Of a stretch of DNA of 64,000 nucleotides, positions 18,969 through 58,282 are shown piece after piece. Source of the DNA: Gemmatimonadota bacterium (GTDB lineage: Bacteria; Gemmatimonadota; Gemmatimonadetes; Gemmatimonadales; GWC2-71-9); the NCBI GenBank assembly GCA_036679605.1, contig JAZDCZ010000407.1, positions 91,417 through 155,416 of the forward strand, in the 5' to 3' direction. The notes under the pieces were generated by a model. It ran no database searches and was not told the origin of the DNA. It saw only the letters and a program-made list of their open reading frames with translations. Every line of letters begins with the position of its first letter. Positions within the stretch are counted from its first letter, which is position 1. The translations under genes and the position numbers were made by a program.

Positions 18969-20087
18969 GTGAACGAGAGAGAACGAAAGTTTACCGAGAA
19001 CGCATCCAAACTGCTTGGACTGTGGTCTGCATATGTCACATCCGGCGGACTGGACAAACCTCCGGCTGCTGTGCCGGACGAATTATTGGACTTAGAAGAC
19101 CAAGTGAGTTCTGAGGTTCCGGCTCTCATCGGCATATGTATGGCGATTCACGCTGAGGAGCAGGAGTGTCTCCCGCAATGGCGTGCTGTTTTTGATGGCG
19201 TGGGAAGTCATGCTGCCCGCACAATACTGTCATTGTCCGCAAAGCTGGCTCTGAAGTCTCCGGATGCGGTCATGAAAATCATCCCATTGGCCACTGGATT
19301 AGCGAAATGGGCTGGCGCGGGCAAGGAGACGCTTTTGCGGGGCATGGGGTGTATGACTGCTATGACCTTGATGCGCAGCGGAAGCGCGATCGCCCCTAGT
19401 GGCACACTAAAGGAGATGGTGCGCGACGGAGCTGTGTGGTCCGTGCTTTTCCCGGGCAGTGACCCAACGCCCGTAGGTATGGCGACGCTTGGGTCGGCGC
19501 TGGCGACGCATGTCTTCCCAGAGGGCGACGCTTGGGCAGATTTTGTCGGCGCGCCGGAACCGGAGCTTTTCAGTGGCTGGGCGGCTTACTTGTATGGCGG
19601 CGGATTGGATAAACCTGTCGCGTCAGTGCATTTCTCGTTGACAGGCATACTGGGCCAAGGTGCACAACTTGTGGACGCAGCCACATCATCTGTGATATCT
19701 GCGGCGATATGCCTCGCCGCCAATGATTTGGGAGACGATTCGACCGATTTGCTCAAGGTTACGGAGATGTGCGTGCGAGAGGCGGCTGGAGACATAGAAA
19801 AATTGCTTGTCATTCTATCGGAGAGGATTGGCTCGTTCTCACAGTTGTCCGTTAAGGTAGGAAGAGAAGAATCATACGGTGCGTCAGGGTGCCTCACAGC
19901 TTTGGTATTATGGCAGGCCGGACTTATGGAATGTCTCGATCCGCACCACACTCTCAGGAGAATGGCGGTGTCGCAGGATACACGATTCGCCGCCAAGAGC
20001 AAAGTGTACACCATCGGTGAGTTTTCGCGCATGCAGGGAGATGTGCTGCGTGACATGCGGAGAGACGACGATGCCGAGGATTCCTAA
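18969..20087 (+). CDS. Hypothetical protein with two copies of a WxxYxxxGGLDKP domain
   Basis: WSAYVTSGGLDKP and WAAYLYGGGLDKP in one ORF. Confidence 0.7.
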   Translation: MNERERKFTENASKLLGLWSAYVTSGGLDKPPAAVPDELLDLEDQVSSEVPALIGICMAIHAEEQECLPQWRAVFDGVGSHAARTILSLSAKLALKSPDAVMKIIPLATGLAKWAGAGKETLLRGMGCMTAMTLMRSGSAIAPSGTLKEMVRDGAVWSVLFPGSDPTPVGMATLGSALATHVFPEGDAWADFVGAPEPELFSGWAAYLYGGGLDKPVASVHFSLTGILGQGAQLVDAATSSVISAAICLAANDLGDDSTDLLKVTEMCVREAAGDIEKLLVILSERIGSFSQLSVKVGREESYGASGCLTALVLWQAGLMECLDPHHTLRRMAVSQDTRFAAKSKVYTIGEFSRMQGDVLRDMRRDDDAEDS

Positions 20088-20169
20088 TCCTGCATGTCGT
20101 TGGTGCGAAGGCACTGACATCACACTCCACGAGCCCCCCTAGACTGAATTGCTTCGACGGTAGAATGAG

Positions 20170-20799
20170 ATGATGTTAAGAGCAAACAAATTGATATCTG
20201 CTGTGACCGCTCTGATCCTCATGCGGCTGGTTGCAGCGGCGAGGGTTTTGTCAGGGCTAGCTGCTTTGCTTTGTTTCCGCAGGCCGAAGTCGATATTCGC
20301 TGCTCCACCAGATGACTCGACGGACGAAGTAAGTTGTGCCAGTCACCCTATTAAGCCGTCGGATGAGACGCAGACCACTCCGCAGGATGATACATATGCC
20401 CCGCCGGCGGATGCTTGGAGAGAACCCGCTCGCTGGCCTCTCACAGAGGCCGTACTGTTGCAGGCTAAAAAGGAAATAGCCGATATATTGCCTAGATGGT
20501 CGATTGATATCGATGCGTTCGACTTGTTCGCATCTCGATGTCAGGAGTTCGTCCTGCGGGCAGAAACGCCGAAGGAATGGGGTTGGAGGTGCCTTGGATC
20601 GGATAAGTATGTCGTGGAAGGCCAACCTAAACAAGTGATGGGTGCACGGTTTTCTGTGTCACATACCTGCATTCACGCGATGCGGGATGATTCATATCTA
20701 GCGCAGCACATAATCGGAAAGCTCTGTGGGTTCGCTCATGACATTCGGCGGGAGGTACTACCGCCTTCTTCGGAAATACTGCCTCCACTATACCATTAA
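20170..20799 (+). CDS. Hypothetical protein
   Basis: 209 aa ORF with hydrophobic N-terminus. Confidence 0.5.
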   Translation: MMLRANKLISAVTALILMRLVAAARVLSGLAALLCFRRPKSIFAAPPDDSTDEVSCASHPIKPSDETQTTPQDDTYAPPADAWREPARWPLTEAVLLQAKKEIADILPRWSIDIDAFDLFASRCQEFVLRAETPKEWGWRCLGSDKYVVEGQPKQVMGARFSVSHTCIHAMRDDSYLAQHIIGKLCGFAHDIRREVLPPSSEILPPLYH

Positions 20800-21265
20800 T
20801 AGCTCTATTTGGGCAGTTCGATTTCGACTTGTTTGCAGTTCTGTAGCAACTGCCTCGTCCCAAGGTACATTGCTTATATATCACCGAAGAGGCAAATAGT
20901 GCTGCGGTATGACAAGCCTGGACTCACGCTAATAGGCGATGTCCACTCGAACAGCAGCGAGTCGCGTGGAGCGAAATTCGGGTCGAGAAACGTTGGATTG
21001 TCCAAGCAGAACCCGTCAAGCTCCTCTGAGTTATCCTTGATCCCGAGCCACCCTCTTGTCCGGAATCTCACAACACCGTCCTGCACGAAGCGAATCAGCA
21101 TGGAACCGCGTTGATCTTAAGGGGTCGCACATCCGCGTCACCTTATAGTCCCCCACCCCTTCTCCCATGACAGGTTGTCGGCCTTGATCATGCCTACGCC
21201 ATCCCAGGCGTGACGAGAATCTCGCCGTCGAGTTCAAACCTGCGGAATGTTTCCGGTATGTCCAC

Positions 21266-21547
21266 TCAAACATCCCCTGCTTCAGTTTTCTTCACATCTT
21301 CGTATGGTGCAACGATCCTCCGACTAAGTTCGCTTTTCGCGCAGTCTAAGGCACCGATCACAGCGTTCAGGCGGGCATAGCGGCACTCCCCCCCCCCATG
21401 GCCGCAGAGCTGCCAAGTGAGCCTAGAGACAATGTAGTTAAGCGGTCCGACCATGGCATCGTTTGAACCGAGAGATCTTAGCTTCTCGGACAGTTCGTCC
21501 ACCAAAATGTCGTATTTGGCTCTATTCTCCTGTGGTATGTATGGCAT
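21266..21547 (-). CDS. Conserved phage-type small protein (MPYI...GxLNY...YEDxKxxExGDV family)
   Basis: AGGAGG RBS; motif pattern recalled from phage genomes. Confidence 0.65.
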   Translation of the reverse strand: MPYIPQENRAKYDILVDELSEKLRSLGSNDAMVGPLNYIVSRLTWQLCGHGGGECRYARLNAVIGALDCAKSELSRRIVAPYEDVKKTEAGDV

Positions 21548-21819
21548 AACGCCTCCTTTCAGGACATTATACCTGTCTCCGCGAGGCTGTCCTCTAACTG
21601 TCCTCCTGGTTATAGGTAGGACACACTCGTAGGTTCCTGCTTCAACGAGGCATGGTTTCACTGTTCAAGCCTTAACCCAAACCAAGACCAAACACACTCA
21701 AGTAGGACAGTCAGGGCTGCCCTTTGTGGAATCTTACGCGTCCCATCCCCTTCGGCCAACCAATCCGGGTGGATTTCCGTCGGCGAGGGGCCTATAAGTA
21801 TATATGGAGGCTTTCCAAA

Positions 21820-22692
21820 ATGTTCGGCAAACATGAGATCGGCAAATTCAGGGCTTGGATGGATTATTTGAAGGGCGGCGGTCTTGACCGCCCTGCGGCG
21901 TCCATCCCGTTTGACCTGATATCCACAGATGGTGCCACCGATGACACGATACTTTTCCTAGCGAGCATGCTCACCATGGCCGCCTTTTCTGGGCCACCCG
22001 CTGCCGAGGAAGCGATGGAAGGGTTTATGCGCGATCCGGAGAACTTCGCGTCGGAGATAGATGGCGAGATCAAGGAGAAGATGGCCTCGGCGCAGGACGC
22101 GATGGACAGCATGCGATCCACCGAGGAGACACTCTTATCCGTCACGACCCTCCTGCACCTATTCGGCTTGTGGCAGGAGGGCCAAACGAAATTGCTGCAT
22201 CCGGCCTATACGCTCAGAAAATTGATCCTGGATCCCGACGAGGGCGAATGGCTTGCCAGTAGTAGATGGATGAATGCAGACGAAGATAACAATCCTACAA
22301 TGCTTACCCTTTCCGCCACAGAAGAGTTGGTTACATCGGAGCTGATGAAGTTCGGCGTCGGCCTACTGCTCCCATTGTCTGACAACCTGCCGTTCGATCT
22401 TGTGCTACATTGGGAGGGGCGGATGTTTCGGGCGAAGCTCAGACAGGCAAAGAGGAAGGACACATCGACGCGTTTTTCACTTCCGACTGACTCAGATTGC
22501 GATATCATAGTGTTGTGTGACGGCGAATCGGTCTATCTCTTGAAGCCGAAGGAGTTCAAAGGCCGCCATGGGTTTACTATCCGTCATCGCCCGACGAAGA
22601 ATGGTCGCTCGAAGGGTTGCAATTTCCACGAGGATTTCGTGGTGTCTGCGAAAAGAGTCAAGAGCGTCCTTACCTCCGGTCACCGCCGCTAG
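21820..22692 (+). CDS. GGLD(R/K)P-domain protein fused to a degenerate PD-(D/E)XK-like endonuclease domain
   Basis: WMDYLKGGGLDRP N-terminus; PLSDNLPFDLVL...FRAKLR C-terminus. Confidence 0.6.
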   Translation: MFGKHEIGKFRAWMDYLKGGGLDRPAASIPFDLISTDGATDDTILFLASMLTMAAFSGPPAAEEAMEGFMRDPENFASEIDGEIKEKMASAQDAMDSMRSTEETLLSVTTLLHLFGLWQEGQTKLLHPAYTLRKLILDPDEGEWLASSRWMNADEDNNPTMLTLSATEELVTSELMKFGVGLLLPLSDNLPFDLVLHWEGRMFRAKLRQAKRKDTSTRFSLPTDSDCDIIVLCDGESVYLLKPKEFKGRHGFTIRHRPTKNGRSKGCNFHEDFVVSAKRVKSVLTSGHRR

Positions 22693-22793
22693 AATATAGC
22701 ACGGGGTCGTTTTCCACTCTGAGGATAGCCACTGGGCAGCCGACCCTTTCCTTGCGCTGGGTTTGATGTTGTCTTTCCGCCGCGCGGTTCAAT

Positions 22794-23687
22794 ATGAGCA
22801 AATACCATCTCGCCGCCGTAGCTCTCACCAGACCCGCCGAGGAGGATTTGACCGCCGTCAGGGACGCCGTGGCGAAGGCCAAGAAATGGACATCGGACTC
22901 ATTGCGCCGTCTGGACATCCATGACACCGTCACTGTAAAGGTGAAACGGTTCGCTAAGTCGCCGAACTGGCTGGCCATGTACAGGTCGAATTCGCAGTTC
23001 GGCCGCAACCCTATATTCTGGATCAACGAGAACATCCTCGGCGTCCTGCGCGACGAGGATGTGTTGGACTCTGAGCTGCTCAAGGTGGTGTACGACAGTC
23101 TGCTGCACGAGTATGGCCATGTCGTATGGGAATGGGCCAGGACACGGGATTCTGAGACTTACGACATGCTGTTGAACGGCTTCTGGGATGACGAGGAGGA
23201 GTTCGCCGAGGGGTTCGTGCAGTTCGCGCTAAACGGCCTCGGAGAGAAGGGATATAGGCCAGTCGTCGAGGCGTTCGCCGAGAAGGTGTTCACCCCCGCC
23301 GCGTCCGCTGAGGGCGGCCTACTTCGGCTGGAGTGTCTCTGTGCGGACGACTTCGGTGCTAGGTACAAGGACGGCGACTTGACTGATGATGACGCAGCGC
23401 ACATCGAGAACTATGAGGAGACGCGGGCGGCGCAGCTCGCGATGGCCGAGGAGGCCCGGTCGCGAGGGATTGAATGTTATGTGTCGGACAGCGACGACAA
23501 GGACTCCCACCATTCCGATGCGTATATTTATTTCCCGTCCGGCCGCATGGCCGAGGTGGCGGAGATACTCGCCTCCGTCGGCCTCGATGGCGATGTGCTT
23601 GATGTGCCGGAGTGGTTCACCGACGAGAAACAGATATACGGCTGGATCGTGGAGAAGCATGAGAAGCCGGATTGGCACGGCGCTTGA
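22794..23687 (+). CDS. Putative zincin-type metallopeptidase domain protein
   Basis: LLHEYGH and EEEFAE motifs. Confidence 0.6.
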   Translation: MSKYHLAAVALTRPAEEDLTAVRDAVAKAKKWTSDSLRRLDIHDTVTVKVKRFAKSPNWLAMYRSNSQFGRNPIFWINENILGVLRDEDVLDSELLKVVYDSLLHEYGHVVWEWARTRDSETYDMLLNGFWDDEEEFAEGFVQFALNGLGEKGYRPVVEAFAEKVFTPAASAEGGLLRLECLCADDFGARYKDGDLTDDDAAHIENYEETRAAQLAMAEEARSRGIECYVSDSDDKDSHHSDAYIYFPSGRMAEVAEILASVGLDGDVLDVPEWFTDEKQIYGWIVEKHEKPDWHGA

Positions 23688-23712
23688 CTTTCGGTTCCGC
23701 GTATGCTATATT
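23684..23712 (+). promoter_or_regulatory. Sigma70-like promoter of tRNA cluster 1
   Basis: TTGACT-17 bp-TATATT with extended -10 TG. Confidence 0.75.
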
Positions 23713-23730
23713 AGAGTTGGAGAAAGTATT

Positions 23731-23796
23731 ATGTTGATGATCGCAGCAACCCGTGAACAAGAGCAGGCCGCCGAAGCGAGGGGGGTCTCCGGGTAA
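23731..23796 (+). CDS. Leader peptide of tRNA cluster 1 (MLMIAATREQEQAAEARGVSG)
   Basis: GGAG RBS; run GAA CAA GAG CAG GCC GCC GAA GCG matches downstream Glu/Gln/Ala tRNAs. Confidence 0.8.
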   Translation: MLMIAATREQEQAAEARGVSG

Positions 23797-23854
23797 GCTG
23801 CACTTACATGGCGAAGTGAACCAGCCCTGGAGACGCGAGTCTCGGGGCTTTTTT
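23785..23854 (+). terminator. Attenuator: antiterminator/terminator before tRNA cluster 1
   Basis: Terminator AGCCCTGGAGAC-GCGA-GTCTCGGGGC-T6; its 5' arm can instead pair with GTCTCCGGG/GCTG flanking the leader stop codon. Confidence 0.8.
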
Positions 23855-23859
23855 ATTGC

Positions 23860-23931
23860 GCCCCCATCGTCTAGTGGCTAGGACGCCAGTCCCTCAAGCT
23901 GGAAACACGGGTTCAAGTCCCGTTGGGAGCA
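23860..23931 (+). tRNA. tRNA-Glu(CTC)
   Basis: Cloverleaf; anticodon arm CCAGT-CCCTCAA-GCTGG; T-loop TTCAAGT. Confidence 0.9.
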
Positions 23932-23936
23932 TTTTC

Positions 23937-24009
23937 GGGGCCATATCTCAGTCGGGAGAGCGCTTCCTCGGCAAGGAAGAGGTCAAGGGTTCGAATCCCT
24001 TTGGTTCCA
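23937..24009 (+). tRNA. tRNA-Ala(GGC)
   Basis: GGGGCCA acceptor with G3:U70; CTTCC-TCGGCAA-GGAAG. Confidence 0.9.
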
Positions 24010-24013
24010 TTGT

Positions 24014-24179
24014 TGGGCCGTAGCAGAACGCCCAGTTAGGAGGTCAAGACAGAGCGACATCACGCGCGGACAGAGAGCGTAACAGAGGCACTGTGGCAAG
24101 CCGCCGGAGTGGTGGTGGGACACCTTCGGTGTGCTGCGCGCGGGACTCAGTGATTCGGGTTCAAGTCCCAGTGGTTCAG
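24014..24179 (+). ncRNA. 166-nt tRNA-like structured RNA with Gln-like acceptor stem and T-arm
   Basis: TGGGCCG/TGGTTCA+G ends, GGTTCAAGTCC T-arm, long non-canonical interior with UUCG hairpin. Confidence 0.5.
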
Positions 24180-24183
24180 TAGA

Positions 24184-24257
24184 GGGGTCGTAGCTCAACA
24201 CGGGAGAGTGCCTGCCTCGCAAGCAGGAGGTTGGCGGTTCGAGTCCGCCCGATTCCA
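24184..24257 (+). tRNA. tRNA-Ala(CGC)
   Basis: CCTGC-CTCGCAA-GCAGG; G3:U70. Confidence 0.9.
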
Positions 24258-24258
24258 T

Positions 24259-24330
24259 TGCCTTGTGGTGTAACTGGTAACACAGATGGCTTTGAACCAT
24301 CCGTTTCGGGTTCGAGTCCCGGTGAGGCAG
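24259..24330 (+). tRNA. tRNA-Gln(TTG)
   Basis: GATGG-CTTTGAA-CCATC; U1:A72, G73. Confidence 0.9.
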
Positions 24331-24332
24331 CA

Positions 24333-24403
24333 GCCCTTGTCGTCTAGCGGTAGGACAGCGCGCCTTCAACGCGCAAACGCCGGTTCGATTCCGGTCAAGG
24401 GCA
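24333..24403 (+). tRNA. tRNA-Glu(TTC)
   Basis: GCGCG-CCTTCAA-CGCGC. Confidence 0.9.
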
Positions 24404-24495
24404 TTCAGCCGAGCCACTGGTTATCGTCGGGTCATGGGTTGAAATCCTCGAACAGATAGCCATGCGACTGGTGCCATCCGGATTCGGCGCACAAA

Positions 24496-24519
24496 AAAGG
24501 CTGGCGCTAGCCAGCCTTT
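24496..24519. terminator. Probable bidirectional terminator
   Basis: AAAGGCTGGC/GCCAGCCTTT inverted repeat between convergent units. Confidence 0.7.
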
Positions 24520-24540
24520 CCTGTTTTTGCGATTCGGTGG

Positions 24541-24954
24541 TTAGGACAGGATTCCATACCGTTTGCCGCCGAGCTGCGACTTGATGCTTTTCGCATTTCG
24601 CTTTGAAATGATGTTGACTGCGAAGTGCCGACGTCCGTGACTTTTGCTGACGACCATCACATCGCCAGCCTTGGCGTTGGCGAGCGACACAAAGCCGCCA
24701 GTGAAGTGCGTTTCGTCGTCTCGTTGGAAGCCGCGAGAGTGTGCGATGACGGCCGCATCAACAGAGCCGACAAGGGTGCCGTTGCGCGACACATCAACCT
24801 TGACATTGGTCGCGGACGAGGGCAAAAGCGCGTAATTGGACACAACTGGTTGCGGTAGGATACCTTGGACGCTGAGCGGGATCAGTGGTCCGCCCTGATG
24901 CGAACCATTTGAGCCCACATCGGTTTGAGTGAGGATTTTTGCGAATTTCTTCAT
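24541..24954 (-). CDS. Stand-alone EcoRII N-terminal (B3-like) DNA-binding domain protein
   Basis: AGGAG RBS; KILTQTDVGSNGSHQGG resembles the EcoRII-N signature. Confidence 0.55.
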   Translation of the reverse strand: MKKFAKILTQTDVGSNGSHQGGPLIPLSVQGILPQPVVSNYALLPSSATNVKVDVSRNGTLVGSVDAAVIAHSRGFQRDDETHFTGGFVSLANAKAGDVMVVSKSHGRRHFAVNIISKRNAKSIKSQLGGKRYGILS

Positions 24955-25049
24955 TTCATTCTCCTTTTTTCTATCTGCCTGTCTGCCTGTCTGTTGGGCA
25001 CATGCCTTTGCACATATAGTTATATGCGCTCCGCAGGCGGAAGTCAACC

Positions 25050-26549
25050 TTAGAACTCAAAGAAAGCAAAGGCCGAGTGGAGGCCGAGCGCGGCCAGCGA
25101 CGCCCAGAATATAGTGAGTCCCACATCACGGCTGACACCCGTGTGTGATGGCTTAGCCCGCGAGCCGATGGCGTATCCCAAGGCCGCGATCAACAGCCCG
25201 CTACCCGCCGTCTTGAGCAGTACCCATCCAATCCCTTTCGGGAGGGTGTCTGTCCAGAGGGTGGCGAAATAGTTCCGCCGGAAGGCGGACACAGTGGCAC
25301 CGTCGGACGACAAAAGGAAGGCCACAAGGGACGCGTAACAGTTGGCCGCGAAGGCGATTAATGTCAGGATTGGTGCGGCGATTGCCATGGATAGCGATAT
25401 GTTGCCGTACAGGTAATGTCTAGGGTTAGCCCCAAGGTTGTGCATGGCGTCGAATTGGTGTGTCAATCGCCTAGTCCCGATATCTGCCGCTATGGACGCG
25501 CCACATTTGCCTGCGATCAATACACATATCAGCAAGGGAGCCACCACGCGGAACGCACTATACCCCGTCGCCGCGAGGAACTCCTCCATGACCAGCGGCA
25601 ATGTCATGTCCCTGTACGGCAGTTGCGAGAACCCGAAGAAGATTGTGACGAAGCCAGTGAGAGTTCCTGCGATGACGGCGTAGAGCGCGGTGTTCCCAAA
25701 GAGGACCATGCGCAGGTAGTGCAGGAGGTAGTGTACTTTCCATTGTGGTCGTGACCAGCCACGGAACGGTGCATTGGCGGCATCCAACAGCGTCAGTGCG
25801 ACTTCGCCAGGAGCCTCCACTATGGCTCGCATTTGTCCGCTAACTGCCACCACCCGTTGCTGTACCTCTTGCTCTTCCTCAGTTTGAGATCGGAAAAAGT
25901 CGTCCAGTTCCTGCGGAGTCACATCACGCAGCCGTTTTTCGGACGGATCCAGCAGTACTAATCTCGGCTGGTGGGGGATGAAGGCAGCGTAATCATGGCT
26001 CACCACGATGGTTGTTCGCCCTGAGTTTCGGTGTGTCCGTGATATCAAGTCTGCTACGGCTTTTGCCCGTTGTGGGTCGAGTCCAGTGGTTGGCTCATCG
26101 AACAGTAGGATATCTGGCTCCATGGCGAGTGTCCGAGCCAACGCGACTCGTTGTCGTTCGCCACCACTGAGGGTACCTGTCTTAGCATGAAGCGGCACGG
26201 ACATCTCGGCGAGCCGGCGTCTTGCTTCCCCTCCCTCCGCCTGTCTCTTCCGGTGGTCGATGGCGAATTGGACATTGTCGAGCGGGGAGAGTTCGTCGAA
26301 CAGCGCGAGTTTCTGAAAAACCACGCCGATCGTCGCATCATTTTTAGTGTGTATGTCGCCAGACACCTCCATATGGCTTGTCTGACGAGCCATGAGATTA
26401 AGCAGAGTGGACTTGCCGGATCCGCTCGGTCCAGCTAACACAATGAATTCTCCATCCTCCACGATCAGGTTTGCGCTCCGCAGCAGCGTTCGCCCTTCAG
26501 GTAGCGTGACAGACAGTGTATCGATGCTCAGTGCGGGTTGAAGCTTCAT
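25050..26549 (-). CDS. ABC ATPase fused to MlaE-like permease
   Basis: GPSGSGKS, LSGGERQR, LLFDEPT; C-terminal GASIAADIGT...DAMHNLGANP MlaE pattern. Confidence 0.85.
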   Translation of the reverse strand: MKLQPALSIDTLSVTLPEGRTLLRSANLIVEDGEFIVLAGPSGSGKSTLLNLMARQTSHMEVSGDIHTKNDATIGVVFQKLALFDELSPLDNVQFAIDHRKRQAEGGEARRRLAEMSVPLHAKTGTLSGGERQRVALARTLAMEPDILLFDEPTTGLDPQRAKAVADLISRTHRNSGRTTIVVSHDYAAFIPHQPRLVLLDPSEKRLRDVTPQELDDFFRSQTEEEQEVQQRVVAVSGQMRAIVEAPGEVALTLLDAANAPFRGWSRPQWKVHYLLHYLRMVLFGNTALYAVIAGTLTGFVTIFFGFSQLPYRDMTLPLVMEEFLAATGYSAFRVVAPLLICVLIAGKCGASIAADIGTRRLTHQFDAMHNLGANPRHYLYGNISLSMAIAAPILTLIAFAANCYASLVAFLLSSDGATVSAFRRNYFATLWTDTLPKGIGWVLLKTAGSGLLIAALGYAIGSRAKPSHTGVSRDVGLTIFWASLAALGLHSAFAFFEF

Positions 26550-27688
26550 TTGCCTGCCTTTTTCGCACGGAGAGTTACCCATGCCACATTGCGCCTCAAT
26601 GCGGTGGATCGTACTAGATGCACAATCTCCGGTCGAGTGACTCCGTTTTGGTCGAACATGACCGTCGATAGTATACTTTTCAGCGTCGGACCGAGCAATT
26701 CTATGGTGTGGTACATCTCCTGCCGTACATGCGGATCATCGATGAGCCTCTCCCGCAGGAAGTCGGCGGTGTGCGAGTTCTTGGCCATCGTTTCACGGTA
26801 GATGTCCGAAAGGAGTAGTTGAATCTGCTTATCGTCGCGCAGCCGCTGGAGAATTCCGCCCAGACGAGTTCTGAGTTCCTCGTCCTGCCGTGCCATGTCC
26901 CAAGTCTCATGCAACGCCTCGCGCAGTTCGTGTCGGTCGTCCTCCGGCATGTCAGATATCCAATCGCCGAGCCAGTCCAACATTAGTTCGTATGCGGCGC
27001 TGTAATTTCCCCGTACTATATTCCAAACAATCTGTGTTTTAGGAGCGTCGGCCAAAGCGTTGCTAGCAAGACGGCTCAAAGTGGGTGTCAGGTGTTCCTG
27101 GAGTATTGGACGCAGTCGCTGCTGTATCAGCGGCCAATCCTCGCCTAAGCGATCCAGATGTTTTTGGCTTATGGTTTGCATATCCCCGCTGTGGTTTCGT
27201 ATTACCGCTCCAAACTCTTCACTGACCAGACCGATGTATGCCATAGCCAAGCCGCCCGCGATTGGTTTCCAAATTTCCGTGAGTTCGGTGCCATTATCGC
27301 GCCATGCCAGCGAGATGTGGTCGGCCACGCGCTTTCGTATGGCGGGTGGCAGCAAGGCGGACACGGTTTCCTCCGCCGACATCGGCGTCTGCCAGCAGGT
27401 CGCCAATGTGTTGGATAGGTCGCCCAACCTCTGATCGACGGACAAAGCGATTGTGTCCCAGTGGACGGCACCTACTTCCCCGATGCGTCGCAGGCCATTC
27501 TCTGTGTCTAGGAACACAACATCCCCTGGAGAGATATTGTGTTCCCTCGGGGCAGGTATATGGAGTTCGCTTGTCGGTCTCAGCATGCGTCGGCATACAA
27601 TATATGCCGATCCGACTGCCCCCGACCCCGCTGAAAGCCACAGGACAGCTCCGAGGATTAGATGGATATTGCGGCTACCGCTGTGCAT
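26546..27688 (-). CDS. Membrane-anchored protein, possibly MlaD/MCE-like partner
   Basis: N-terminal TM, PGDVVF...IGEV, helical remainder; overlaps ABC gene. Confidence 0.55.
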   Translation of the reverse strand: MHSGSRNIHLILGAVLWLSAGSGAVGSAYIVCRRMLRPTSELHIPAPREHNISPGDVVFLDTENGLRRIGEVGAVHWDTIALSVDQRLGDLSNTLATCWQTPMSAEETVSALLPPAIRKRVADHISLAWRDNGTELTEIWKPIAGGLAMAYIGLVSEEFGAVIRNHSGDMQTISQKHLDRLGEDWPLIQQRLRPILQEHLTPTLSRLASNALADAPKTQIVWNIVRGNYSAAYELMLDWLGDWISDMPEDDRHELREALHETWDMARQDEELRTRLGGILQRLRDDKQIQLLLSDIYRETMAKNSHTADFLRERLIDDPHVRQEMYHTIELLGPTLKSILSTVMFDQNGVTRPEIVHLVRSTALRRNVAWVTLRAKKAGK

Positions 27689-27992
27689 TTATTTCTCTTT
27701 TATTCAAACGGCGTATCAACCCAGCGTCCGCTCGACCGATTATCATGACGGCTTCCAAACCGTCCGGCAGTTCATTCGTCTCAAACTGCCACCATGTCAG
27801 CCCCCCGTCTAATGTCAGAAGCCTGTAGACACCATATGTTTCGTCATCTCCCAACCTTTGGGCGAATTTGTCTTTGTAGGCCTGAACCGTGAGTTCTAGT
27901 CCGGCGTTCCTACCCTGCACATCAAACAGCATCGCGATCACCAGCCCCCACACGATTGCTGTTGTGATTCCGATAGCGATTTGTAGCTTCAT
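27675..27992 (-). CDS. Small membrane protein
   Basis: N-terminal TM helix, coupled to neighbours. Confidence 0.55.
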   Translation of the reverse strand: MKLQIAIGITTAIVWGLVIAMLFDVQGRNAGLELTVQAYKDKFAQRLGDDETYGVYRLLTLDGGLTWWQFETNELPDGLEAVMIIGRADAGLIRRLNKREINAQR

Positions 27993-27993
27993 G

Positions 27994-29130
27994 TTATTTT
28001 CCTGTCTCGGCGAATTTCTTGTATCTTTTTAGGTCATCCGGTTTCACAGAAGGCTTTATCCCCTTCAGTACGGAGAGGATATCCTGCATCGCGATGGGAC
28101 GCCGGTCGTCCTTCCCGCCGGATTTTACGAAGTCCATGAAAGGTACGCTCGCGGATTTCGTTGCGAGGTTCTTTATGTCTGCGCCGCTGTAGCCGTCGAG
28201 GGACTCGCACAGTTTATTGAGATTGACATCGTCGTCGAGAGGTCTGTCACCGAGGTAAATTTCCAGCATGCGCATCCGCGCCGCCGTATCCGGCAGACCA
28301 AGATAAGCCATCGTATCAAACCGGCCAGGGCGCATCATTGCGTCGTCCAACATCCACGGTTTATTGGTGGCTCCGATGAATAATAGACAGCGTTCCCCGC
28401 AGTCGAAGCCTTCCAACTCTTGTAGTATCTGCGGCACTACTCTTTGCATGACGGTTGATCCGCCCGACCCCCGACGTGGCGCGAGCGCTTCGATCTCGTC
28501 GATGAAAATGACGGCTTTCTCCTCTGCCTTCGCCGCATCGAACAATTTACTGACATTTTGTTCGGCCTCGCCGACCCATTTGCTCAGCATCTCGGCTGGT
28601 GACACCATGAAGAAGGTCGCGTCTATTTCGTTTGCCACGGCCTTCGCTATCATTGTTTTGCCTGTCCCTGGGGGGCCGTACACTAGCAGCCCGCCACCTG
28701 CTGAGATACCATACTCCGCCGCCTCTTCCGGATATGCGAGTGGGTGGATCATTTTGAGTCTGATTTCCTCCTTCACTTCATCCAGACCTGCGATGTCGTC
28801 GAAGCTGATGTCCGGTTTCTCTCGTACAATCCAGTCGTTGGCGTCGCTTCCATCATCTCCACTGTGATCCTTAACGCGGCCTTTCTTTCCGGACTTGCCT
28901 TTTTTTGCCGCGCATTCCTTCGCAAGGTCGATGAGCTGCTGCGCTAAGTCCTCCTGCTCGGTGCGCACATTGTCATCTGACCTGGTCTTGGCGATCCTGA
29001 GAAGGCAGTCTGCCGCCTGCATTAGGAATGGTTTGGCCTTGGCATGGTCACCAGCTTTGTAAGCAAGCAACCCTTTGGACTTCAGGCGATCGAATGTCTC
29101 GTACAATGGTGTTTTTGCGGTCACGGGCAT
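27994..29130 (-). CDS. AAA+ ATPase, Vps4/CdvC-like, with MIT-like helical N-terminus
   Basis: GPPGTGKT, SKWVGEAE pore loop, FIDEIE, ATNKPWMLD, RPGRFD, KPSV..DLKRYKKF C-terminal helix. Confidence 0.8.
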   Translation of the reverse strand: MPVTAKTPLYETFDRLKSKGLLAYKAGDHAKAKPFLMQAADCLLRIAKTRSDDNVRTEQEDLAQQLIDLAKECAAKKGKSGKKGRVKDHSGDDGSDANDWIVREKPDISFDDIAGLDEVKEEIRLKMIHPLAYPEEAAEYGISAGGGLLVYGPPGTGKTMIAKAVANEIDATFFMVSPAEMLSKWVGEAEQNVSKLFDAAKAEEKAVIFIDEIEALAPRRGSGGSTVMQRVVPQILQELEGFDCGERCLLFIGATNKPWMLDDAMMRPGRFDTMAYLGLPDTAARMRMLEIYLGDRPLDDDVNLNKLCESLDGYSGADIKNLATKSASVPFMDFVKSGGKDDRRPIAMQDILSVLKGIKPSVKPDDLKRYKKFAETGK

Positions 29131-31121: not shown

Positions 31122-31165
31122 GACGATAATCCGGCTCATTTATAGCTGGGTACGATGGTTTGGTT

Positions 31166-31221
31166 CGGGCCGACGCGGACGGGTTATCTGGTAATGACTC
31201 CCGTCCGCACAAACTTGCCCG
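31166..31221 (+). ncRNA. Y-RNA-like unit 2
   Basis: CGGGCCGA...GGTTA...CACAAACTTGCCCG; inner stem GCGGACGGG/CCCGTCCGC. Confidence 0.65.
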
Positions 31222-31333
31222 CCCCAGTCTTGCGATGCTTTGTCTCGGCGATTACTTGCCGAACAGAGGCTTCTGTGGCCGGAGCGGTTTGCCGCCTCGG
31301 CTTTTTTTGTGCGGACAGAGAAGGAGAATGGAG

Positions 31334-38696: not shown

Positions 38697-38793
38697 CCTG
38701 CCTTGACCGATGTGTATGTCCGATATCCAAACACAATCAAGTCAGGCAGTTAGATATAGACCTTGTTTTCTTTTACCCGGAGAGTGTACTCCG

Positions 38794-39677: not shown

Positions 39678-39984
39678 AATCGCATTCATTCTGGCTGCTG
39701 GGTTCATTTTCGGCGGATATATAGATTCACGGTTTCAGGGCGGTTATGGCGGCTTCTGTTTTGGAATGATGCCTGGAGCCGTCGGGTTGGCCATGGCGAT
39801 GTTGGCATTCGCCGCTTGGTCAATCCACGCATCAAGACCGTGGTCTTGGATTCTCGCGTACATATCCTGCACCGCGTCCGTCGGGATGGTGTCGTTGCTC
39901 GGCGCGGAGTGGCTCGCCGGGTTCGCGAAGAAATCTCTAGGAAGTGCTTGTTTTCTGGTTGGCCGCGTGCTATACTGGAATTGA
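39655..39984 (+). CDS. Small membrane protein
   Basis: Three hydrophobic segments. Confidence 0.5.
   Translation: MRTIMLIEIAFILAAGFIFGGYIDSRFQGGYGGFCFGMMPGAVGLAMAMLAFAAWSIHASRPWSWILAYISCTASVGMVSLLGAEWLAGFAKKSLGSACFLVGRVLYWN
39948..39976 (+). promoter_or_regulatory. Sigma70-like promoter of tRNA cluster 2
   Basis: TTGTTT-17 bp-TATACT with extended -10 TG. Confidence 0.65.
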
Positions 39985-40028
39985 GGTAATCGCCCTTCGC
40001 GGGGTGTGGATATAAACAGGTAAATGAG

Positions 40029-40091
40029 ATGATGAACTTAACGCTAAGCCCATGGTTACTCCCATATCTGCCCGAGGAGGGTGTCACCTAA
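40029..40091 (+). CDS. Leader peptide of tRNA cluster 2 (MMNLTLSPWLLPYLPEEGVT)
   Basis: Run CCA TGG TTA CTC CCA TAT CTG CCC plus upstream TTA and CTA; matches Leu/Pro/Trp/Tyr tRNAs. Confidence 0.8.
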   Translation: MMNLTLSPWLLPYLPEEGVT

Positions 40092-40152
40092 GCTGCGCGT
40101 ACATTTTGCGTTTCGCAGCCCCGGTGACCAAGAGGTCATCGGGGCTTTTTTT
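40083..40152 (+). terminator. Attenuator: antiterminator/terminator before tRNA cluster 2
   Basis: AGCCCCGGTGACC-AAGA-GGTCATCGGGGC-T7; 5' arm can instead pair with GTCACC/GCTGCG flanking the leader stop codon. Confidence 0.8.
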
Positions 40153-40285
40153 GTGGACATGGAGCGGACGTGTCCCGTTGGGTTCAAATCCCGCCGTCCG
40201 TATATTGAAGAGAGAGAGAGATATTAAGGGAGATAAGGCGGCAGGCGTCAGAGGCTCGTTCCCGGCACCGCACACTCTCCTCTTT

Positions 40286-40368
40286 GGCCTTGTGGTGAAA
40301 CGGCAGACACGGCCCGCTTAAACTGGGCTGCCCGCGAGGGCGTGAGGGTTCGAATCCCTCCGAGGCTA
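40286..40368 (+). tRNA. tRNA-Leu(TAA)
   Basis: Long variable arm, loop CTTAAAA, one bulged base in the anticodon stem. Confidence 0.75.
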
Positions 40369-40376
40369 TTGTGAAG

Positions 40377-40446
40377 GGTCCTGTGACGGAATTTGGTAGA
40401 TGTAGTCGCATAAGCGGCTGCCTGAAAGGGTGTGGGGGTTCAAGAC
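40377..40446 (+). pseudogene. Degenerate tRNA-Leu-like gene
   Basis: Leu-type D-arm and variable arm, truncated anticodon loop, 3' end lost. Confidence 0.5.
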
Positions 40447-40497
40447 TATTGAACGCGGGTAGCCCAATCCACTCCGCGCAGTGATAATTTTGTAGAT

Positions 40498-40568
40498 AGG
40501 TCGTTGGTCTAGTGGTAGGGCGTTGGTCTCCAAAACCAAAGACGAGGGTTCGATTCCTTCACGACCTG
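40498..40568 (+). tRNA. tRNA-Trp(CCA)
   Basis: TTGGT-CTCCAAA-ACCAA. Confidence 0.9.
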
Positions 40569-40593
40569 TTCGGCGCTTTTGACAACCGGAGAC

Positions 40594-40678
40594 GCGCGGA
40601 TGACGCAATTGGCGACGTGGCAGGCTTAGAACCTGCTGGGGTTTGTCCCCGTTGCGGGTTCGAATCCCGCTCCGCGCA
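40594..40678 (+). tRNA. tRNA-Leu(TAG)
   Basis: GCAGG-CTTAGAA-CCTGC, long variable arm. Confidence 0.9.
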
Positions 40679-40689
40679 TTGTTGGTATG

Positions 40690-40772
40690 GGGTAGGTGGC
40701 AGAGTGGCGATTGCGTCTGGCTGTAAACCAGATGTCCTTTGGACTTCGGGGGTTCGAGTCCCTCCCTGCCCA
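40690..40772 (+). tRNA. tRNA-Tyr(GTA)
   Basis: TCTGG-CTGTAAA-CCAGA, long variable arm. Confidence 0.9.
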
Positions 40773-40820
40773 TATTGCATTCAGTGAAGAGAATGATAGG
40801 GTATGGGTAGAAGAGAATGA

Positions 40821-40894
40821 CAGGGTATGGGCTAGTCTGGTAAGTCGTCCGCTCCGGAAGCGGAAGAACGTCGGTTCGAATCCGACTACCCTGA
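40821..40894 (+). tRNA. tRNA-Pro(CGG)
   Basis: C1:G72; TCCGC-TCCGGAA-GCGGA. Confidence 0.85.
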
Positions 40895-40897
40895 ATA

Positions 40898-40971
40898 CAG
40901 GATGTGGGCCAGTCTGGCAGGTCGCCTCGTCTGGAGCGAGGAAAACGCCGGTTCGAATCCGGCCATCCTGA
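40898..40971 (+). tRNA. tRNA-Pro(TGG)
   Basis: C1:G72; CCTCG-TCTGGAG-CGAGG. Confidence 0.85.
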
Positions 40972-57675: not shown

Positions 57676-57749
57676 TAGGCCGCCTCGGACTCGAACCGAG
57701 AACCTCATCTTTAGGAGAGATGCGCTCTAATCCATTGAGCTAGCGGCCT
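57676..57749 (-). tRNA. tRNA-Arg(CCT)
   Basis: CATCT-CTCCTAA-AGATG on minus strand. Confidence 0.9.
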
Positions 57750-57750
57750 G

Positions 57751-57826
57751 CCAAATGAGGCAGGATTTGAACCTGCGACCCCGCCTTCGGAGGGTGACGC
57801 TTTGTCCGAACTAAGCTAACGGCTCC
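57751..57826 (-). tRNA. tRNA-Arg(CCG), acceptor stem degenerate (possible pseudogene)
   Basis: Loop CTCCGAA, intact T-arm, 3' acceptor strand does not pair. Confidence 0.55.
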
Positions 57827-57828
57827 AA

Positions 57829-57902
57829 TGTCCCCGGGAGGATTTGAACCTCCAACCCTCGGCTTAGAAGGCCGCTGCGCTGATCCATTGCGCCACGGGG
57901 AC
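57829..57902 (-). tRNA. tRNA-Arg(TCT)
   Basis: CGGC-CTTCTAA-GCCG. Confidence 0.9.
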
Positions 57903-57909
57903 GGCAAAT

Positions 57910-57950
57910 ATAGACTAGGCAGGAATCGAACCTGCGACTTCATTCTTTCC
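57910..57950 (-). pseudogene. 3'-half tRNA remnant
   Basis: GTCGCAGGTTCGATTCCTGCCTAGTCTA, T-arm and acceptor strand only. Confidence 0.55.
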
Positions 57951-57953
57951 TAA

Positions 57954-58027
57954 TGAGCCTGACAGGAATCGAACCCGCAACACCCCGGTTAAAAGCCGGA
58001 CGCTCTACCAAATTGAGCTACAGACCC
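57954..58027 (-). tRNA. tRNA-Lys(TTT)
   Basis: TCCGG-CTTTTAA-CCGGG. Confidence 0.9.
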
Positions 58028-58095
58028 CGCTAACTGTCCTAACCCGAACCAAGTTCCCCGTCGTTCACGGGTATTAAATGCCGCTTGGATTCAAA

Positions 58096-58168
58096 TGGGT
58101 CTAGCTGGTTTCGAACCAGCGGTCTTCCGGTTAAGAGCCGGACGCTCTGCCTACTGAGCTATAGACCC
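58096..58168 (-). tRNA. tRNA-Lys(CTT)
   Basis: TCCGG-CTCTTAA-CCGGA. Confidence 0.9.
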
Positions 58169-58192: not shown

Positions 58193-58282
58193 CTAACGCT
58201 TCAACCGGCGCGGTCTTCGCCCGCCGGATATCAGAGGCCGAGACGGCCTCAAACGTTTATCGAGATGGAATTGCGTGTTCAT
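58193..58282 (-). CDS. Leader peptide of tRNA cluster 3 (MNTQFHLDKRLRPSRPLISGGRRPRRLKR)
   Basis: Contains AAA, AAG and all six Arg codons; lies between promoter and Lys/Arg tRNAs. Confidence 0.7.
   Translation of the reverse strand: MNTQFHLDKRLRPSRPLISGGRRPRRLKR

What the first reader, a model, noticed from the sequence alone, without database searches (positions are those of the whole stretch)
23731..23854. Attenuator 1: Glu/Gln/Ala leader with mutually exclusive antiterminator and terminator
SEEN: codons 9-16 (23755-23778) are GAA CAA GAG CAG GCC GCC GAA GCG, and the downstream anticodons are TTC, TTG, CTC, GGC and CGC, so each of the five tRNAs has its exact cognate codon in the run. GTCTCCGGG (23785-93) and GCTG (23797-800), flanking the stop, can pair with CAGC-CCTGGAGAC (23822-34), which is also the 5' arm of the terminator (23823-54). 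INFERENCE: a ribosome at the stop masks the antiterminator strand and permits termination, while stalling on the run frees it and permits read-through.
Basis: partly seen in the sequence, partly recalled or inferred. Interest (0 to 1): 0.9.

Follow-up and report, generated by a model that had tools for sequence, protein, structure and literature searches.

The report
Codon-matched attenuators gating tRNA gene clusters
A large phage-like mobile element places a tiny translated test gene, written in the codons that the following tRNA genes read, plus a switchable transcription stop in front of its tRNA clusters, so it probably makes those tRNAs mainly when ribosomes read these codons slowly.

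Summary
At 23684-23854 lie a sigma-70-like promoter, a Shine-Dalgarno site, a 21-codon ORF, an intrinsic terminator and a competing antiterminator. Five tRNA genes start 5 nt after the U-run. Each of their anticodons (CTC, GGC, CGC, TTG, TTC) has its exact codon in leader codons 9-16.

Three more tRNA clusters of the same 155-kb contig have their own leader rich in their own tRNAs' codons. After correction for looking elsewhere, p is 0.002-0.019 per cluster and 2e-6 combined. Two of the three share the stop-codon/antiterminator/terminator design.

One metagenomic relative (L003) keeps the promoter, the reading frame (two indels, both of 3 nt), both helices and the codon run. All 7 of its anticodons are covered.

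Footprint-constrained folding of attenuator 1 reproduces the proposed switch. The sister copies switch only in a kinetic model, and cluster 3 has no recognisable terminator.

No Rfam family matches, and seven literature searches found no description of leader-peptide attenuation of tRNA genes. This scan has noted the same logic before on unrelated DNA.

Verdict: real. It is most likely trp/thr-style ribosome-mediated attenuation applied to tRNA operons. This is a new variant of a known mechanism and is untested experimentally.

The parts
23684..23712 (+). Promoter of tRNA operon 1: TTGACT, 17-nt spacer, TG-extended TATATT. The stop codon of the upstream 297-aa ORF lies inside the -35 box.
   Evidence: 10 of 12 matches, TG present; conserved in L003
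23719..23722 (+). Shine-Dalgarno GGAG, 8 nt before the ATG
   Evidence: conserved in L003
23731..23796 (+). Leader ORF, 21 codons plus TAA
   Evidence: the frame is kept in L003 despite two 3-nt indels
23743..23753 (+). Region 1: pairs with 23789-23801 (1:2 'protector' helix) while no ribosome is present
   Evidence: MFE; prefixes of 84-108 nt
23755..23778 (+). Run of eight Glu/Gln/Ala codons; holds the exact cognate codon of all five downstream tRNAs
23778..23786 (+). SD-like motif GAGGnGnGT just 5' of region 2. It is shared by all four attenuators although it is read in a different frame in cluster 2. Its role is unexplained.
   Evidence: (alignment A1)
23785..23800 (+). Region 2: last three sense codons, the stop codon and GCTG; the 5' strand of the antiterminator
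23801..23821 (+). Apical hairpin of the antiterminator (CACTT/AAGTG)
   Evidence: L003 has a different 5-bp hairpin in the same spacer
23822..23834 (+). Region 3: 3' strand of the antiterminator and also the 5' arm of the terminator
23823..23854 (+). Intrinsic terminator (7+4 bp with one bulge, loop GCGA, run of six T)
   Evidence: -15.7 kcal/mol
23860..24403 (+). Regulated genes: tRNA-Glu(CTC), Ala(GGC), a decayed tRNA-Gln(CTG) remnant (about 24013-24050), Ala(CGC), Gln(TTG), Glu(TTC). The first tRNA starts 5 nt after the U-run, which leaves no room for a promoter of its own.
24496..24528 (+). Terminator at the end of operon 1
39948..40153 (+). Sister attenuator 2. It has a weak -35 with a TG-extended TATACT (39948-39976). 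Its leader ORF 40029-40091 encodes MMNLTLSPWLLPYLPEEGVT. Region 2 is 40083-40097, region 3 is 40114-40128, and the terminator is 40117-40146 plus a U-run.
   Evidence: the promoter scan did not flag this promoter
40285..40971 (+). tRNA cluster 2: Leu(TAA), Trp(CCA), Leu(TAG), Tyr(GTA), Pro(CGG), Pro(TGG)
58193..58282 (-). Leader-like ORF 3, MNTQFHLDKRLRPSRPLISGGRRPRRLKR. It contains AAA, AAG, AGA, AGG and CGG. It has no SD, no flagged promoter and no intrinsic terminator, so it is the weakest member.
57676..58168 (-). tRNA cluster 3: Lys(CTT), Lys(TTT), Arg(TCT), Arg(CCT), plus a fifth tRNA at 57756-57825 seen only by Rfam (read by eye as Arg CCG)

Best explanation
This is a ribosome-mediated (leader-peptide, class I) transcription attenuator that controls a tRNA operon.

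Transcription starts at the promoter 23684-23712, and a ribosome translates the 21-codon leader. Three helices compete:
- 1:2, where 23743-53 pairs with the stop-flanking strand.
- 2:3, the antiterminator, where 23785-23800 pairs with 23822-34.
- 3:4, the terminator, 23823-49 plus the U-run.

Fast decoding: if Glu, Gln and Ala codons are read quickly, the ribosome reaches the last codons or the stop and covers region 2. Region 3 then pairs with region 4, and RNA polymerase stops 5 nt before the first tRNA gene.

Slow decoding: if charged tRNA for any codon of the run is scarce, the ribosome stalls over or behind region 1 and leaves region 2 free. The antiterminator forms and the five tRNA genes are transcribed.

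The products are the very tRNAs that read the test codons, so the circuit is a direct negative feedback on tRNA supply. The same element uses sister attenuators, each written in the codons of its own cluster.

What is shown: anatomy, codon matching, conservation, and thermodynamic feasibility. What is inferred: translation of the leader, termination and read-through, and the physiological signal.
For: 1. Anatomy in the right order and spacing: promoter, SD, ORF, antiterminator overlapping the terminator, then a tRNA 5 nt after the U-run, so tRNA transcription must pass through the terminator.

2. Codon matching. The leader-by-cluster matrix shows own-cluster amino acids in 10/20, 10/19, 10/28 and 13/27 codons; the highest of the 12 off-diagonal cells is 7/28. 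Exact anticodon coverage is 5/5, 4/6, 5/5 and 7/7. Probability in random 200-nt stretches is 0.0040, 0.0189, 0.0076 and 0.0024, and Fisher's combined p is 2.3e-6. Of the 1420 small ORFs of the contig, 0-1 per codon set reach both measures.

3. The three-part signature (SD-like motif, stop plus GCT, terminator arm) occurs 3 times in the 6.7-Mb bin, each time directly before a tRNA cluster of this contig. Among 70 first-of-cluster tRNAs of the bin, only those of this contig have a terminator plus a matched leader.

4. Orthologue L003. The promoter, SD, ATG, run, region 2, region 3 and terminator are conserved. The frame is kept by two indels of exactly 3 nt. A stop lies 12 nt upstream in frame, so the ORF stands alone. 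All 7 of 7 anticodons of its larger cluster have their codon in the leader. The neighbouring protein is only 62% identical.

5. Footprint-constrained folding gives the predicted switch, and prefix folding shows the 1:2 helix.

6. The antiterminator is stronger than in shuffles: joint p 0.001 (cluster 1), 0.017 (cluster 2), 0.002 (L003).

7. One position changes in step in regions 2, 3 and 4 between clusters 1 and 2: U/A/U versus A/U/A (structures).

8. In all four leaders the cognate run ends 5-6 codons before the stop. That is about one downstream half-footprint.
Against: - There is no expression data: no RNA run holds the sequence.
- Only one orthologue was found, so covariation rests on two orthologues and three paralogues.
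- At equilibrium on full-length RNA, the terminator wins at every ribosome position in cluster 2, cluster 4 and L003 (terminator probability 0.98 or more). Those copies switch only in the kinetic (truncated) model.
- The cluster 4 antiterminator is weak: -14.5 kcal/mol, p 0.28 versus shuffles, probability 0.13-0.85.
- The basal-stem duplex alone is not significant in cluster 2 (p 0.15) or cluster 4 (p 0.33).
- Cluster 3 has no SD, no flagged promoter and no intrinsic terminator.
- The cluster 2 promoter is not flagged by the scan.
- Each tRNA is sampled by only one or two codons, far fewer than in the his or phe leaders, so sensitivity to a single tRNA may be low.
- The leader keeps GCA and CAG codons whose exact tRNAs are missing from this cluster.
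- The overall folding energy of the region is ordinary (z -1.29).
Confidence: 0.72

Rival explanations
1. A generic translation or coupling sensor. The leader and alternative helices report only whether ribosomes follow the polymerase at all (overall translation capacity, or infection stage). Codon identity does not matter.
For: The geometry (ribosome at the stop masks region 2) works with any codons. Each tRNA is sampled by only 1-2 codons. The element encodes its own NusG-like factor (window 5065-5679).
Against: This does not explain why four leaders in one element, plus the orthologue, are each enriched in the codons of their own cluster. It also does not explain why the enrichment stops one footprint before the stop codon.
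Confidence: 0.12
2. Coincidence plus a leaky terminator. The hairpin and U-run form a constitutive partial terminator or insulator, or the end of a small upstream transcript. The short ORF is not translated.
For: Small ORFs and GC-rich terminators are common. 120 or more generic matches to the terminator pattern exist in bacterial genomes. Promoter and terminator counts are no higher than in shuffles. The overall fold z-score is ordinary.
Against: Combined p for codon matching is 2.3e-6. The frame is preserved through two 3-nt indels, and the SD and ATG are conserved in L003. The antiterminator complementarity is significant in 3 of 4 copies. The promoter lies upstream of the terminator and there is no room for another promoter before the tRNA.
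Confidence: 0.06
3. An RNA processing or stability element. The structured 5' leader guides RNase P or RNase E maturation or protects the precursor, and it does not regulate transcription.
For: The hairpin lies 5 nt from the tRNA 5' end. tRNA-like minihelices and tRNA remnants lie within the clusters (40166-40199 and about 24013-24050).
Against: A canonical terminator with a U-run of 6-7 is conserved in four copies. Processing does not need a translated ORF with matched codons.
Confidence: 0.05
4. T-box-like direct sensing. Uncharged tRNAs pair with the codon run of the leader RNA without a ribosome.
For: The run presents codons complementary to the downstream tRNAs' anticodons.
Against: No T-box or any other cis-regulatory Rfam family matches 23600-24600 at E up to 1. 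There is no Stem I or specifier-loop architecture. An SD and ATG precede the run, and the frame is conserved.
Confidence: 0.02

Closest known systems
Multivalent leader-peptide attenuators of enterobacterial amino-acid operons (thr leader for Thr and Ile; ilvGMEDA leader for Ile, Leu and Val; also trpL, hisL, leuL, pheL). Named from general knowledge, not from a call.
   Same: A promoter-proximal short ORF with regulatory codons. Three overlapping helices (1:2, 2:3, 3:4). An intrinsic terminator before the regulated genes. A ribosome at the stop favours termination and a ribosome stalled upstream favours read-through. Several amino acids are sensed by one leader.
   Different: The regulated genes are tRNA genes, not biosynthetic enzymes, so the product directly relieves the stall. 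The codons are chosen to sample each isoacceptor anticodon once or twice rather than in long runs of one codon. There is no sequence or Rfam-model similarity. The stop codon sits in the internal loop of the antiterminator.
pheM-pheST attenuator of E. coli (a leader peptide controlling an aminoacyl-tRNA synthetase operon). Recalled from general knowledge.
   Same: Leader-peptide attenuation applied to a component of the translation apparatus that acts on the sensed tRNA.
   Different: It controls the charging enzyme, not the tRNA genes. It senses a single amino acid.
T-box riboswitches
   Same: Transcription attenuation that reads the state of specific tRNAs through codon-anticodon recognition.
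   Different: T-boxes bind tRNA directly without a ribosome and have conserved Stem I and T-box motifs. None is detected here. T-boxes control synthetase, transporter and biosynthesis genes.
Codon-matched leader attenuators before tRNA clusters noted earlier in this scan on unrelated DNA (e1-2978539, e1-5830176, e1-6021908, e1-5368003, e1-5874612, e1-5755351, e1-6075729, e1-5737766)
   Same: The same logic: a tiny ORF in the codons of the following tRNAs, plus a terminator and antiterminator, in phages and a giant plasmid-like element. Several of those cases have one attenuator per cluster.
   Different: There is no sequence similarity to this window. Those are AI notes that I did not re-test. 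This window adds a family of paralogous attenuators with a shared 3' design, plus one orthologue.

Membership tests
Class I (leader-peptide) transcription attenuators | Short ORF with a start codon and ribosome-binding site close behind a promoter | tested here: met
   Promoter 23684-23712. GGAG lies 8 nt before ATG 23731. All are conserved in L003.
Class I (leader-peptide) transcription attenuators | Enrichment of regulatory codons related to the regulated genes | tested here: met
   10 of 20 codons are Glu, Gln or Ala, and 5 of 5 anticodons are covered. p is 0.004 after look-elsewhere correction. The other clusters behave the same way (combined p 2.3e-6).
Class I (leader-peptide) transcription attenuators | Intrinsic terminator between the leader and the regulated genes | tested here: met
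   Hairpin 23823-23849 plus a T6 run, -15.7 kcal/mol.
Class I (leader-peptide) transcription attenuators | Antiterminator mutually exclusive with the terminator, and controlled by ribosome position | tested here: met
   for attenuator 1 and L003. Met only in the kinetic model for cluster 2, weak for cluster 4, and absent for cluster 3.
Class I (leader-peptide) transcription attenuators | Regulated genes are amino-acid biosynthesis or synthetase genes | tested here: not met
   The regulated genes are five tRNA genes. This is what makes it a new variant.
Class I (leader-peptide) transcription attenuators | Read-through rises when the cognate charged tRNA is limiting | not testable with these tools
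   No RNA run holds the sequence. Needs in vitro or in vivo assays.
Rfam amino-acid leader families (His, Trp, Thr, Leu and similar leaders) | Match to a curated covariance model | tested here: not met
   The only matches to 23600-24600 at E up to 1 are tRNAs and weak unrelated hits. The gathering-threshold scan of the window gives only tRNAs and one stray sRNA hit.
T-box riboswitch | Stem I with specifier loop and conserved T-box sequence (Rfam model) | tested here: not met
   No T-box hit at E up to 1.

The most novel reading that the evidence does not exclude
The element carries a modular set of isoacceptor-specific tRNA-shortage sensors, one per tRNA cluster. Each turns on exactly the tRNAs whose codons are being read slowly. 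This amounts to a demand-driven tRNA replacement circuit. It would let a giant phage or plasmid ride out host tRNA depletion, for instance by anticodon nucleases or its own shut-off of the host.

The circuit would work alongside the element's RNA-repair genes (Pnkp-RNA ligase fusion, LigT-like ligase, Ro60) and its tRNAs with unusual anticodon loops. Together with the unrelated cases noted by this scan and the one in a cultured Stutzerimonas megaplasmid, it would define a widespread, undescribed class of tRNA gene regulation.
Probability: 0.35. Interest if true: 0.9.

Novelty: new variant of a known kind. Interest (0 to 1): 0.8.

Why it matters
tRNA genes are textbook examples of growth-rate and stringent control at the promoter. 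I found no description of tRNA genes controlled by leader-peptide attenuation in seven full-text searches.

If the reading is right, mobile elements measure decoding speed codon by codon and top up only the tRNAs that are short. That would explain how phage- and plasmid-borne tRNA sets are kept cheap yet responsive. It would also link them to the contest over host tRNAs.

The leaders would give a natural, compact, programmable sensor of individual tRNA pools. The four leaders in one genome, each matched to a different cluster, form a built-in specificity control that makes the idea directly testable.

Tried and rejected
Searches for relatives
- Megablast of 20000-28000 against phages: no match.
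- Protein-anchored scans of IMG/VR with the 297-aa upstream ORF, the ABC/MlaE ORF and DnaK: no relatives.
- Two attenuator patterns in IMG/VR: 0 hits.
- The metagenome scan gave 7 loci. Only L003 carries tRNAs. L002 and L005 end just after the gene.
In my script over 127 loci, 7 had a tRNA within 400 nt downstream. One was L003. The other 6 were single tRNAs about 75-330 nt away, which I took to be ordinary terminators and did not study further.
- BLAST of the attenuator against 401 genomes of the bin's order: only matches of 19-43 nt.
- Distant BLAST against plasmids and phages: only the tRNA-Glu part matches.

Generality
- In 39 viral loci fetched with a tRNA-Ala pattern, 6 have a terminator-like site close before a tRNA and 0 have a matched leader; the best was 3 of 19 codons. 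The flanks were short.

Expression
- No RNA holder was listed.

Folding
- The equilibrium model fails for cluster 2, cluster 4 and L003.
- The apical hairpins of the window and L003 are different hairpins, not column-wise covariation, so I did not count them as compensatory pairs.
- The MAFFT alignment of the four copies puts the basal stems out of register.

Other points
- Reading the leader as the end of the 136-aa ORF 23386-23796: rejected. That ORF overlaps the 297-aa gene in another frame, and L003 has an in-frame stop 12 nt before its ATG.
- Codon usage of the element against the rest of the bin: only modest shifts (CCA, AGG, AAA, ACA and TTA about 1.6- to 2-fold), from crude ORF proxies. 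Not used as evidence.
- Phage identity is not settled. There are PHROG hits to tail-fibre-like repeats and an S49 protease, but no capsid, portal or terminase among the 89 ORFs scanned.

Full report
**What is there.** The window is bases 91417-155416 of a 155,416-bp contig (C343) in a 6.7-Mb, 434-contig bin. At 23684-23712 lies a promoter-like site, TTGACT, 17 nt, TG-extended TATATT, with 10 of 12 matches. GGAG follows at 23719-22, then an ORF from ATG 23731 to TAA 23794-96 that encodes MLMIAATREQEQAAEARGVSG. A terminator hairpin follows at 23823-23849 with a run of six T to 23854. The first tRNA gene starts at 23860.

ARAGORN and Rfam find five tRNAs up to 24403. ARAGORN calls the fifth SeC(TCA). 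Aligned with the relative's Glu(TTC), it has the same CCTTCAA loop on a covarying 5-bp stem, so it is Glu(TTC). A second terminator at 24496-24519 closes the unit.

**The same design recurs in the element.** The contig carries 24 ARAGORN tRNAs, 23 of them in four clusters.
- Cluster 2 (40285-40971; Leu, Trp, Leu, Tyr, Pro, Pro) is preceded by the ORF MMNLTLSPWLLPYLPEEGVT (40029-40091) and a 13-bp terminator at 40117-40146.
- Cluster 4 lies outside the window (C343 60648-61513, minus strand). It holds Thr, Thr, Gly, Gly, Asn, Asn, Met, Thr. Its first tRNA is miscalled Tyr by ARAGORN but aligns as Thr(GGT) and lacks a long variable arm. It is preceded by TTGACT-17-TACACT, the ORF MQTSASTFRNDMAGTTNNGTRGRRCVLG and a 14-bp terminator.
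- Cluster 3 (58168-57676, minus strand; Lys, Lys, Arg, Arg, plus a fifth tRNA that only Rfam finds) is preceded by MNTQFHLDKRLRPSRPLISGGRRPRRLKR. It has no SD, no flagged promoter and no intrinsic terminator; the region folds into three plain hairpins.

**Is the codon match more than chance?** In the 4-by-4 matrix of leaders against clusters, own-cluster amino acids fill 10/20, 10/19, 10/28 and 13/27 codons. The highest off-diagonal cell is 7/28. Exact codons cover 5/5, 4/6, 5/5 and 7/7 distinct anticodons.

Random windows of the contig reach both measures with frequency 1.5e-4 to 6.8e-4. Allowing any offset and frame in a random 200-nt stretch gives 0.0040, 0.0189, 0.0076 and 0.0024. Fisher's combination gives 2.3e-6. 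A three-part sequence signature shared by attenuators 1, 2 and 4 occurs three times in the whole bin, only at these places. Among 70 first-of-cluster tRNAs of the bin, 7 have a terminator-like site within 70 nt upstream, and only the two from this contig that pass that filter have a matched leader.

**A relative.** Searching metagenome contigs with the upstream 297-aa ORF gave 7 loci. One, L003, continues into a tRNA cluster. It has TTGCCT-17-TG-extended TATAGT, GGAGGT, and an ORF MFVFAATTREQEQAEARRVSG with its stop at the same place in the structure. It also has the same region 2, a region 3 with one G-U pair turned into G-C, and a perfect terminator stem (11 bp; 12 pairs in the scan).

The two indels inside the ORF are both exactly 3 nt. 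An in-frame stop lies 12 nt before the ATG, so the ORF stands alone. Its cluster is larger: Glu CTC, Glu TTC, Ala GGC, Gln CTG, Ala CGC, Ala TGC, Gln TTG. All seven exact codons are in the leader.

The window's leader still has GCA and CAG, although tRNA-Ala(TGC) is absent and tRNA-Gln(CTG) survives only as a remnant at about 24013-24050. The neighbouring protein is 62% identical over its matched part. The regulatory stretch is 86% identical by mean column identity, which suggests constraint on the RNA.

**Does the switch work on paper?** I used a footprint of A-site -15 to +12.
- Attenuator 1 at equilibrium: antiterminator probability is 0.63-0.99 for A-site codons 2-13. Terminator probability is 0.78-0.92 for codons 14-22, and 0.84 with no ribosome.
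- Sister copies and L003 at equilibrium: the terminator always wins (0.98 or more).
- Transcripts cut before region 4, which is the relevant moment for a kinetic decision: the antiterminator forms with probability 0.78-1.00 while the ribosome is at or before codon 15 in attenuator 1, attenuator 2 and L003. It falls to 0.21 or less from codon 16 and reaches 0.00 over the last codons and the stop. Cluster 4 is weak at 0.13-0.85.
- Prefix folding without a ribosome: a 1:2 helix forms before region 3 exists in attenuator 1 (84-108 nt), L003 (84 and 100 nt) and attenuator 2 (108-148 nt; here region 1 lies in the 5' UTR). The layout is therefore the three-helix layout of trp-type attenuators.
- Against dinucleotide shuffles of the upstream part, the antiterminator is significant for attenuator 1 (0.025; joint 0.001), attenuator 2 (0.023; 0.017) and L003 (0.005; 0.002). 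It is not significant for cluster 4 (0.28; 0.063).
- The basal-stem duplex alone is significant only for attenuator 1 (0.0026) and L003 (0.0007).
- Between attenuators 1 and 2, one position differs in step in regions 2, 3 and 4 (U/A/U versus A/U/A), as expected if region 3 must pair with both partners.
- In all four leaders the cognate run ends 5-6 codons before the stop.

**An unexplained detail.** All four copies share GAGGnGnGT just 5' of region 2. In attenuator 2 it is read in another frame, so it is conserved as RNA and not as peptide. It resembles a Shine-Dalgarno sequence. It might hold the ribosome over region 2, or form part of the 1:2 helix, as it does in the MFE structures of attenuators 2 and 4. 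I could not decide between these.

**Comparison with known systems.** No Rfam family other than tRNA matches the region at E up to 1, so it belongs to no curated leader family and is not a T-box. Functionally it has every structural hallmark of class I attenuators, and it is closest to the multivalent thr and ilv leaders (named from general knowledge).

The difference is the regulated product. These are tRNA genes, sampled isoacceptor by isoacceptor. Stalling therefore induces the very molecules whose lack caused the stall.

Seven full-text searches returned no paper describing such control. For those I saw listings and abstract starts. I also saw one passage of PMC3082878 about a tRNA operon promoter and a term search of PMC2965389 that gave no hits. 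Subscription literature is not covered.

This scan has recorded the same logic on unrelated DNA at least ten times. None is similar in sequence to this window, and I did not re-test those notes.

**Context.** The element encodes:
- tail-fibre-like repeats, several DNA methyltransferases and FtsH;
- Ro60/TROVE and a LigT-like 2'-5' RNA ligase just upstream of attenuator 2;
- a NusG-like antiterminator;
- DnaK directly upstream of attenuator 4;
- a kinase-phosphatase-RNA ligase fusion.

No capsid, portal or terminase was seen among the 89 ORFs scanned, so 'huge phage' is likely but not shown. Relatives of the bin have genomes of 2.6-4.9 Mb and the bin holds 95 tRNAs, so this contig is probably foreign to the binned chromosome. 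The RNA-repair genes fit a setting where tRNA supply is contested. That is context, not evidence.

**Verdict.** One correction applies: stalls on the last one to three codons of the run should terminate. One addition applies: there is a 1:2 helix. The best reading, at 0.72, is leader-peptide attenuation of tRNA operons, used in a modular way by one element. The main weaknesses are the lack of any expression data, a single orthologue, weak antiterminators in cluster 4 and none in cluster 3.

Noticed in passing
L192 1065-1214 (plasmid CP136011.1, Pseudomonas/Stutzerimonas sp. FeN3W, 909,734 bp): An unrelated look-alike in a cultured strain. A 25-codon ORF, MTIITNDIRVTDVREEREDRSCALG, rich in Asp, Arg and Glu, is followed by a small hairpin whose 3' arm could pair with the terminator's 5' arm. 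Then comes a 16-bp terminator with a U-run. Six nt later starts an array of 11 tRNAs (Glu TTC, Asp GTC, Arg ACG/TCG, repeated). The region folds far better than shuffles (z -7.1). No promoter was flagged.
   Followed up: partly
window 23860-23931, 23937-24009, 24333-24403; C343 61444-61513; L003 5566-5637, 5641-5712: Several of the element's tRNAs (Glu CTC, Ala GGC, Glu TTC, Thr GGT) and two of the relative's tRNAs appear to have C instead of the near-universal U at position 33 of the anticodon loop. This shifts ARAGORN's call in two cases (SeC TCA; Tyr GTA).
   Followed up: partly
window 24010-24183: The 174-nt spacer between tRNA-Ala(GGC) and tRNA-Ala(CGC) starts with a decayed copy of the tRNA-Gln(CTG) that is intact in L003. 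It ends in a T-arm-like stretch. L003 has a 372-nt insert with an ORF at the same place.
   Followed up: partly
window 40166-40199: A tRNA-like minihelix (acceptor-like stem plus T-arm, with no D or anticodon arm) lies between the terminator of attenuator 2 and the first tRNA. More T-arm fragments lie inside clusters 2 and 3 (for example about 57925-57945, minus strand).
   Followed up: no
window 57756-57825 (minus strand): A sixteenth tRNA is found only by Rfam (38.6 bits) and missed by ARAGORN. By eye its anticodon loop reads CCG (Arg), and the cluster 3 leader contains CGG twice.
   Followed up: partly
window 2217-4268, 5065-5679, 31160-32929, 38710-39462; C343 61860-63758, 79820-82081: The element encodes FtsH, a NusG-like antiterminator, Ro60 (TROVE plus vWA), a LigT-like 2'-5' RNA ligase, DnaK, and a kinase-phosphatase-RNA ligase fusion. 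Together these form an RNA repair and quality-control and chaperone set next to the tRNA clusters.
   Followed up: partly
window 25050-26582 (minus strand): A single 510-aa ORF joins an ABC ATPase domain to an MlaE-type permease domain, directly downstream of tRNA operon 1.
   Followed up: no
window 31161-31225: An Rfam gathering-level hit to a nematode sRNA family (41 bits against a 38-bit threshold) sits at the start of the Ro60 gene. It is probably spurious. A Y-RNA-like partner for Ro60 was not found at gathering level, and there were only weak YrlA hits over tRNAs.
   Followed up: no
G000 as a whole: The bin has 6.7 Mb and 95 tRNAs, whereas listed relatives in the same order have 2.6-4.9 Mb. 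Contig C343 (GC 55.6% against 58.3% for the rest) is probably a foreign element binned with the chromosome. Other contigs also hold small tRNA groups, such as C173 at 160674-166791.
   Followed up: no
C343 61830-61865 (minus strand; outside the window): A second, stronger promoter-like site (TTGATT-17-TATAAT) and a 33-codon hydrophobic ORF lie between DnaK and the promoter of attenuator 4.
   Followed up: no
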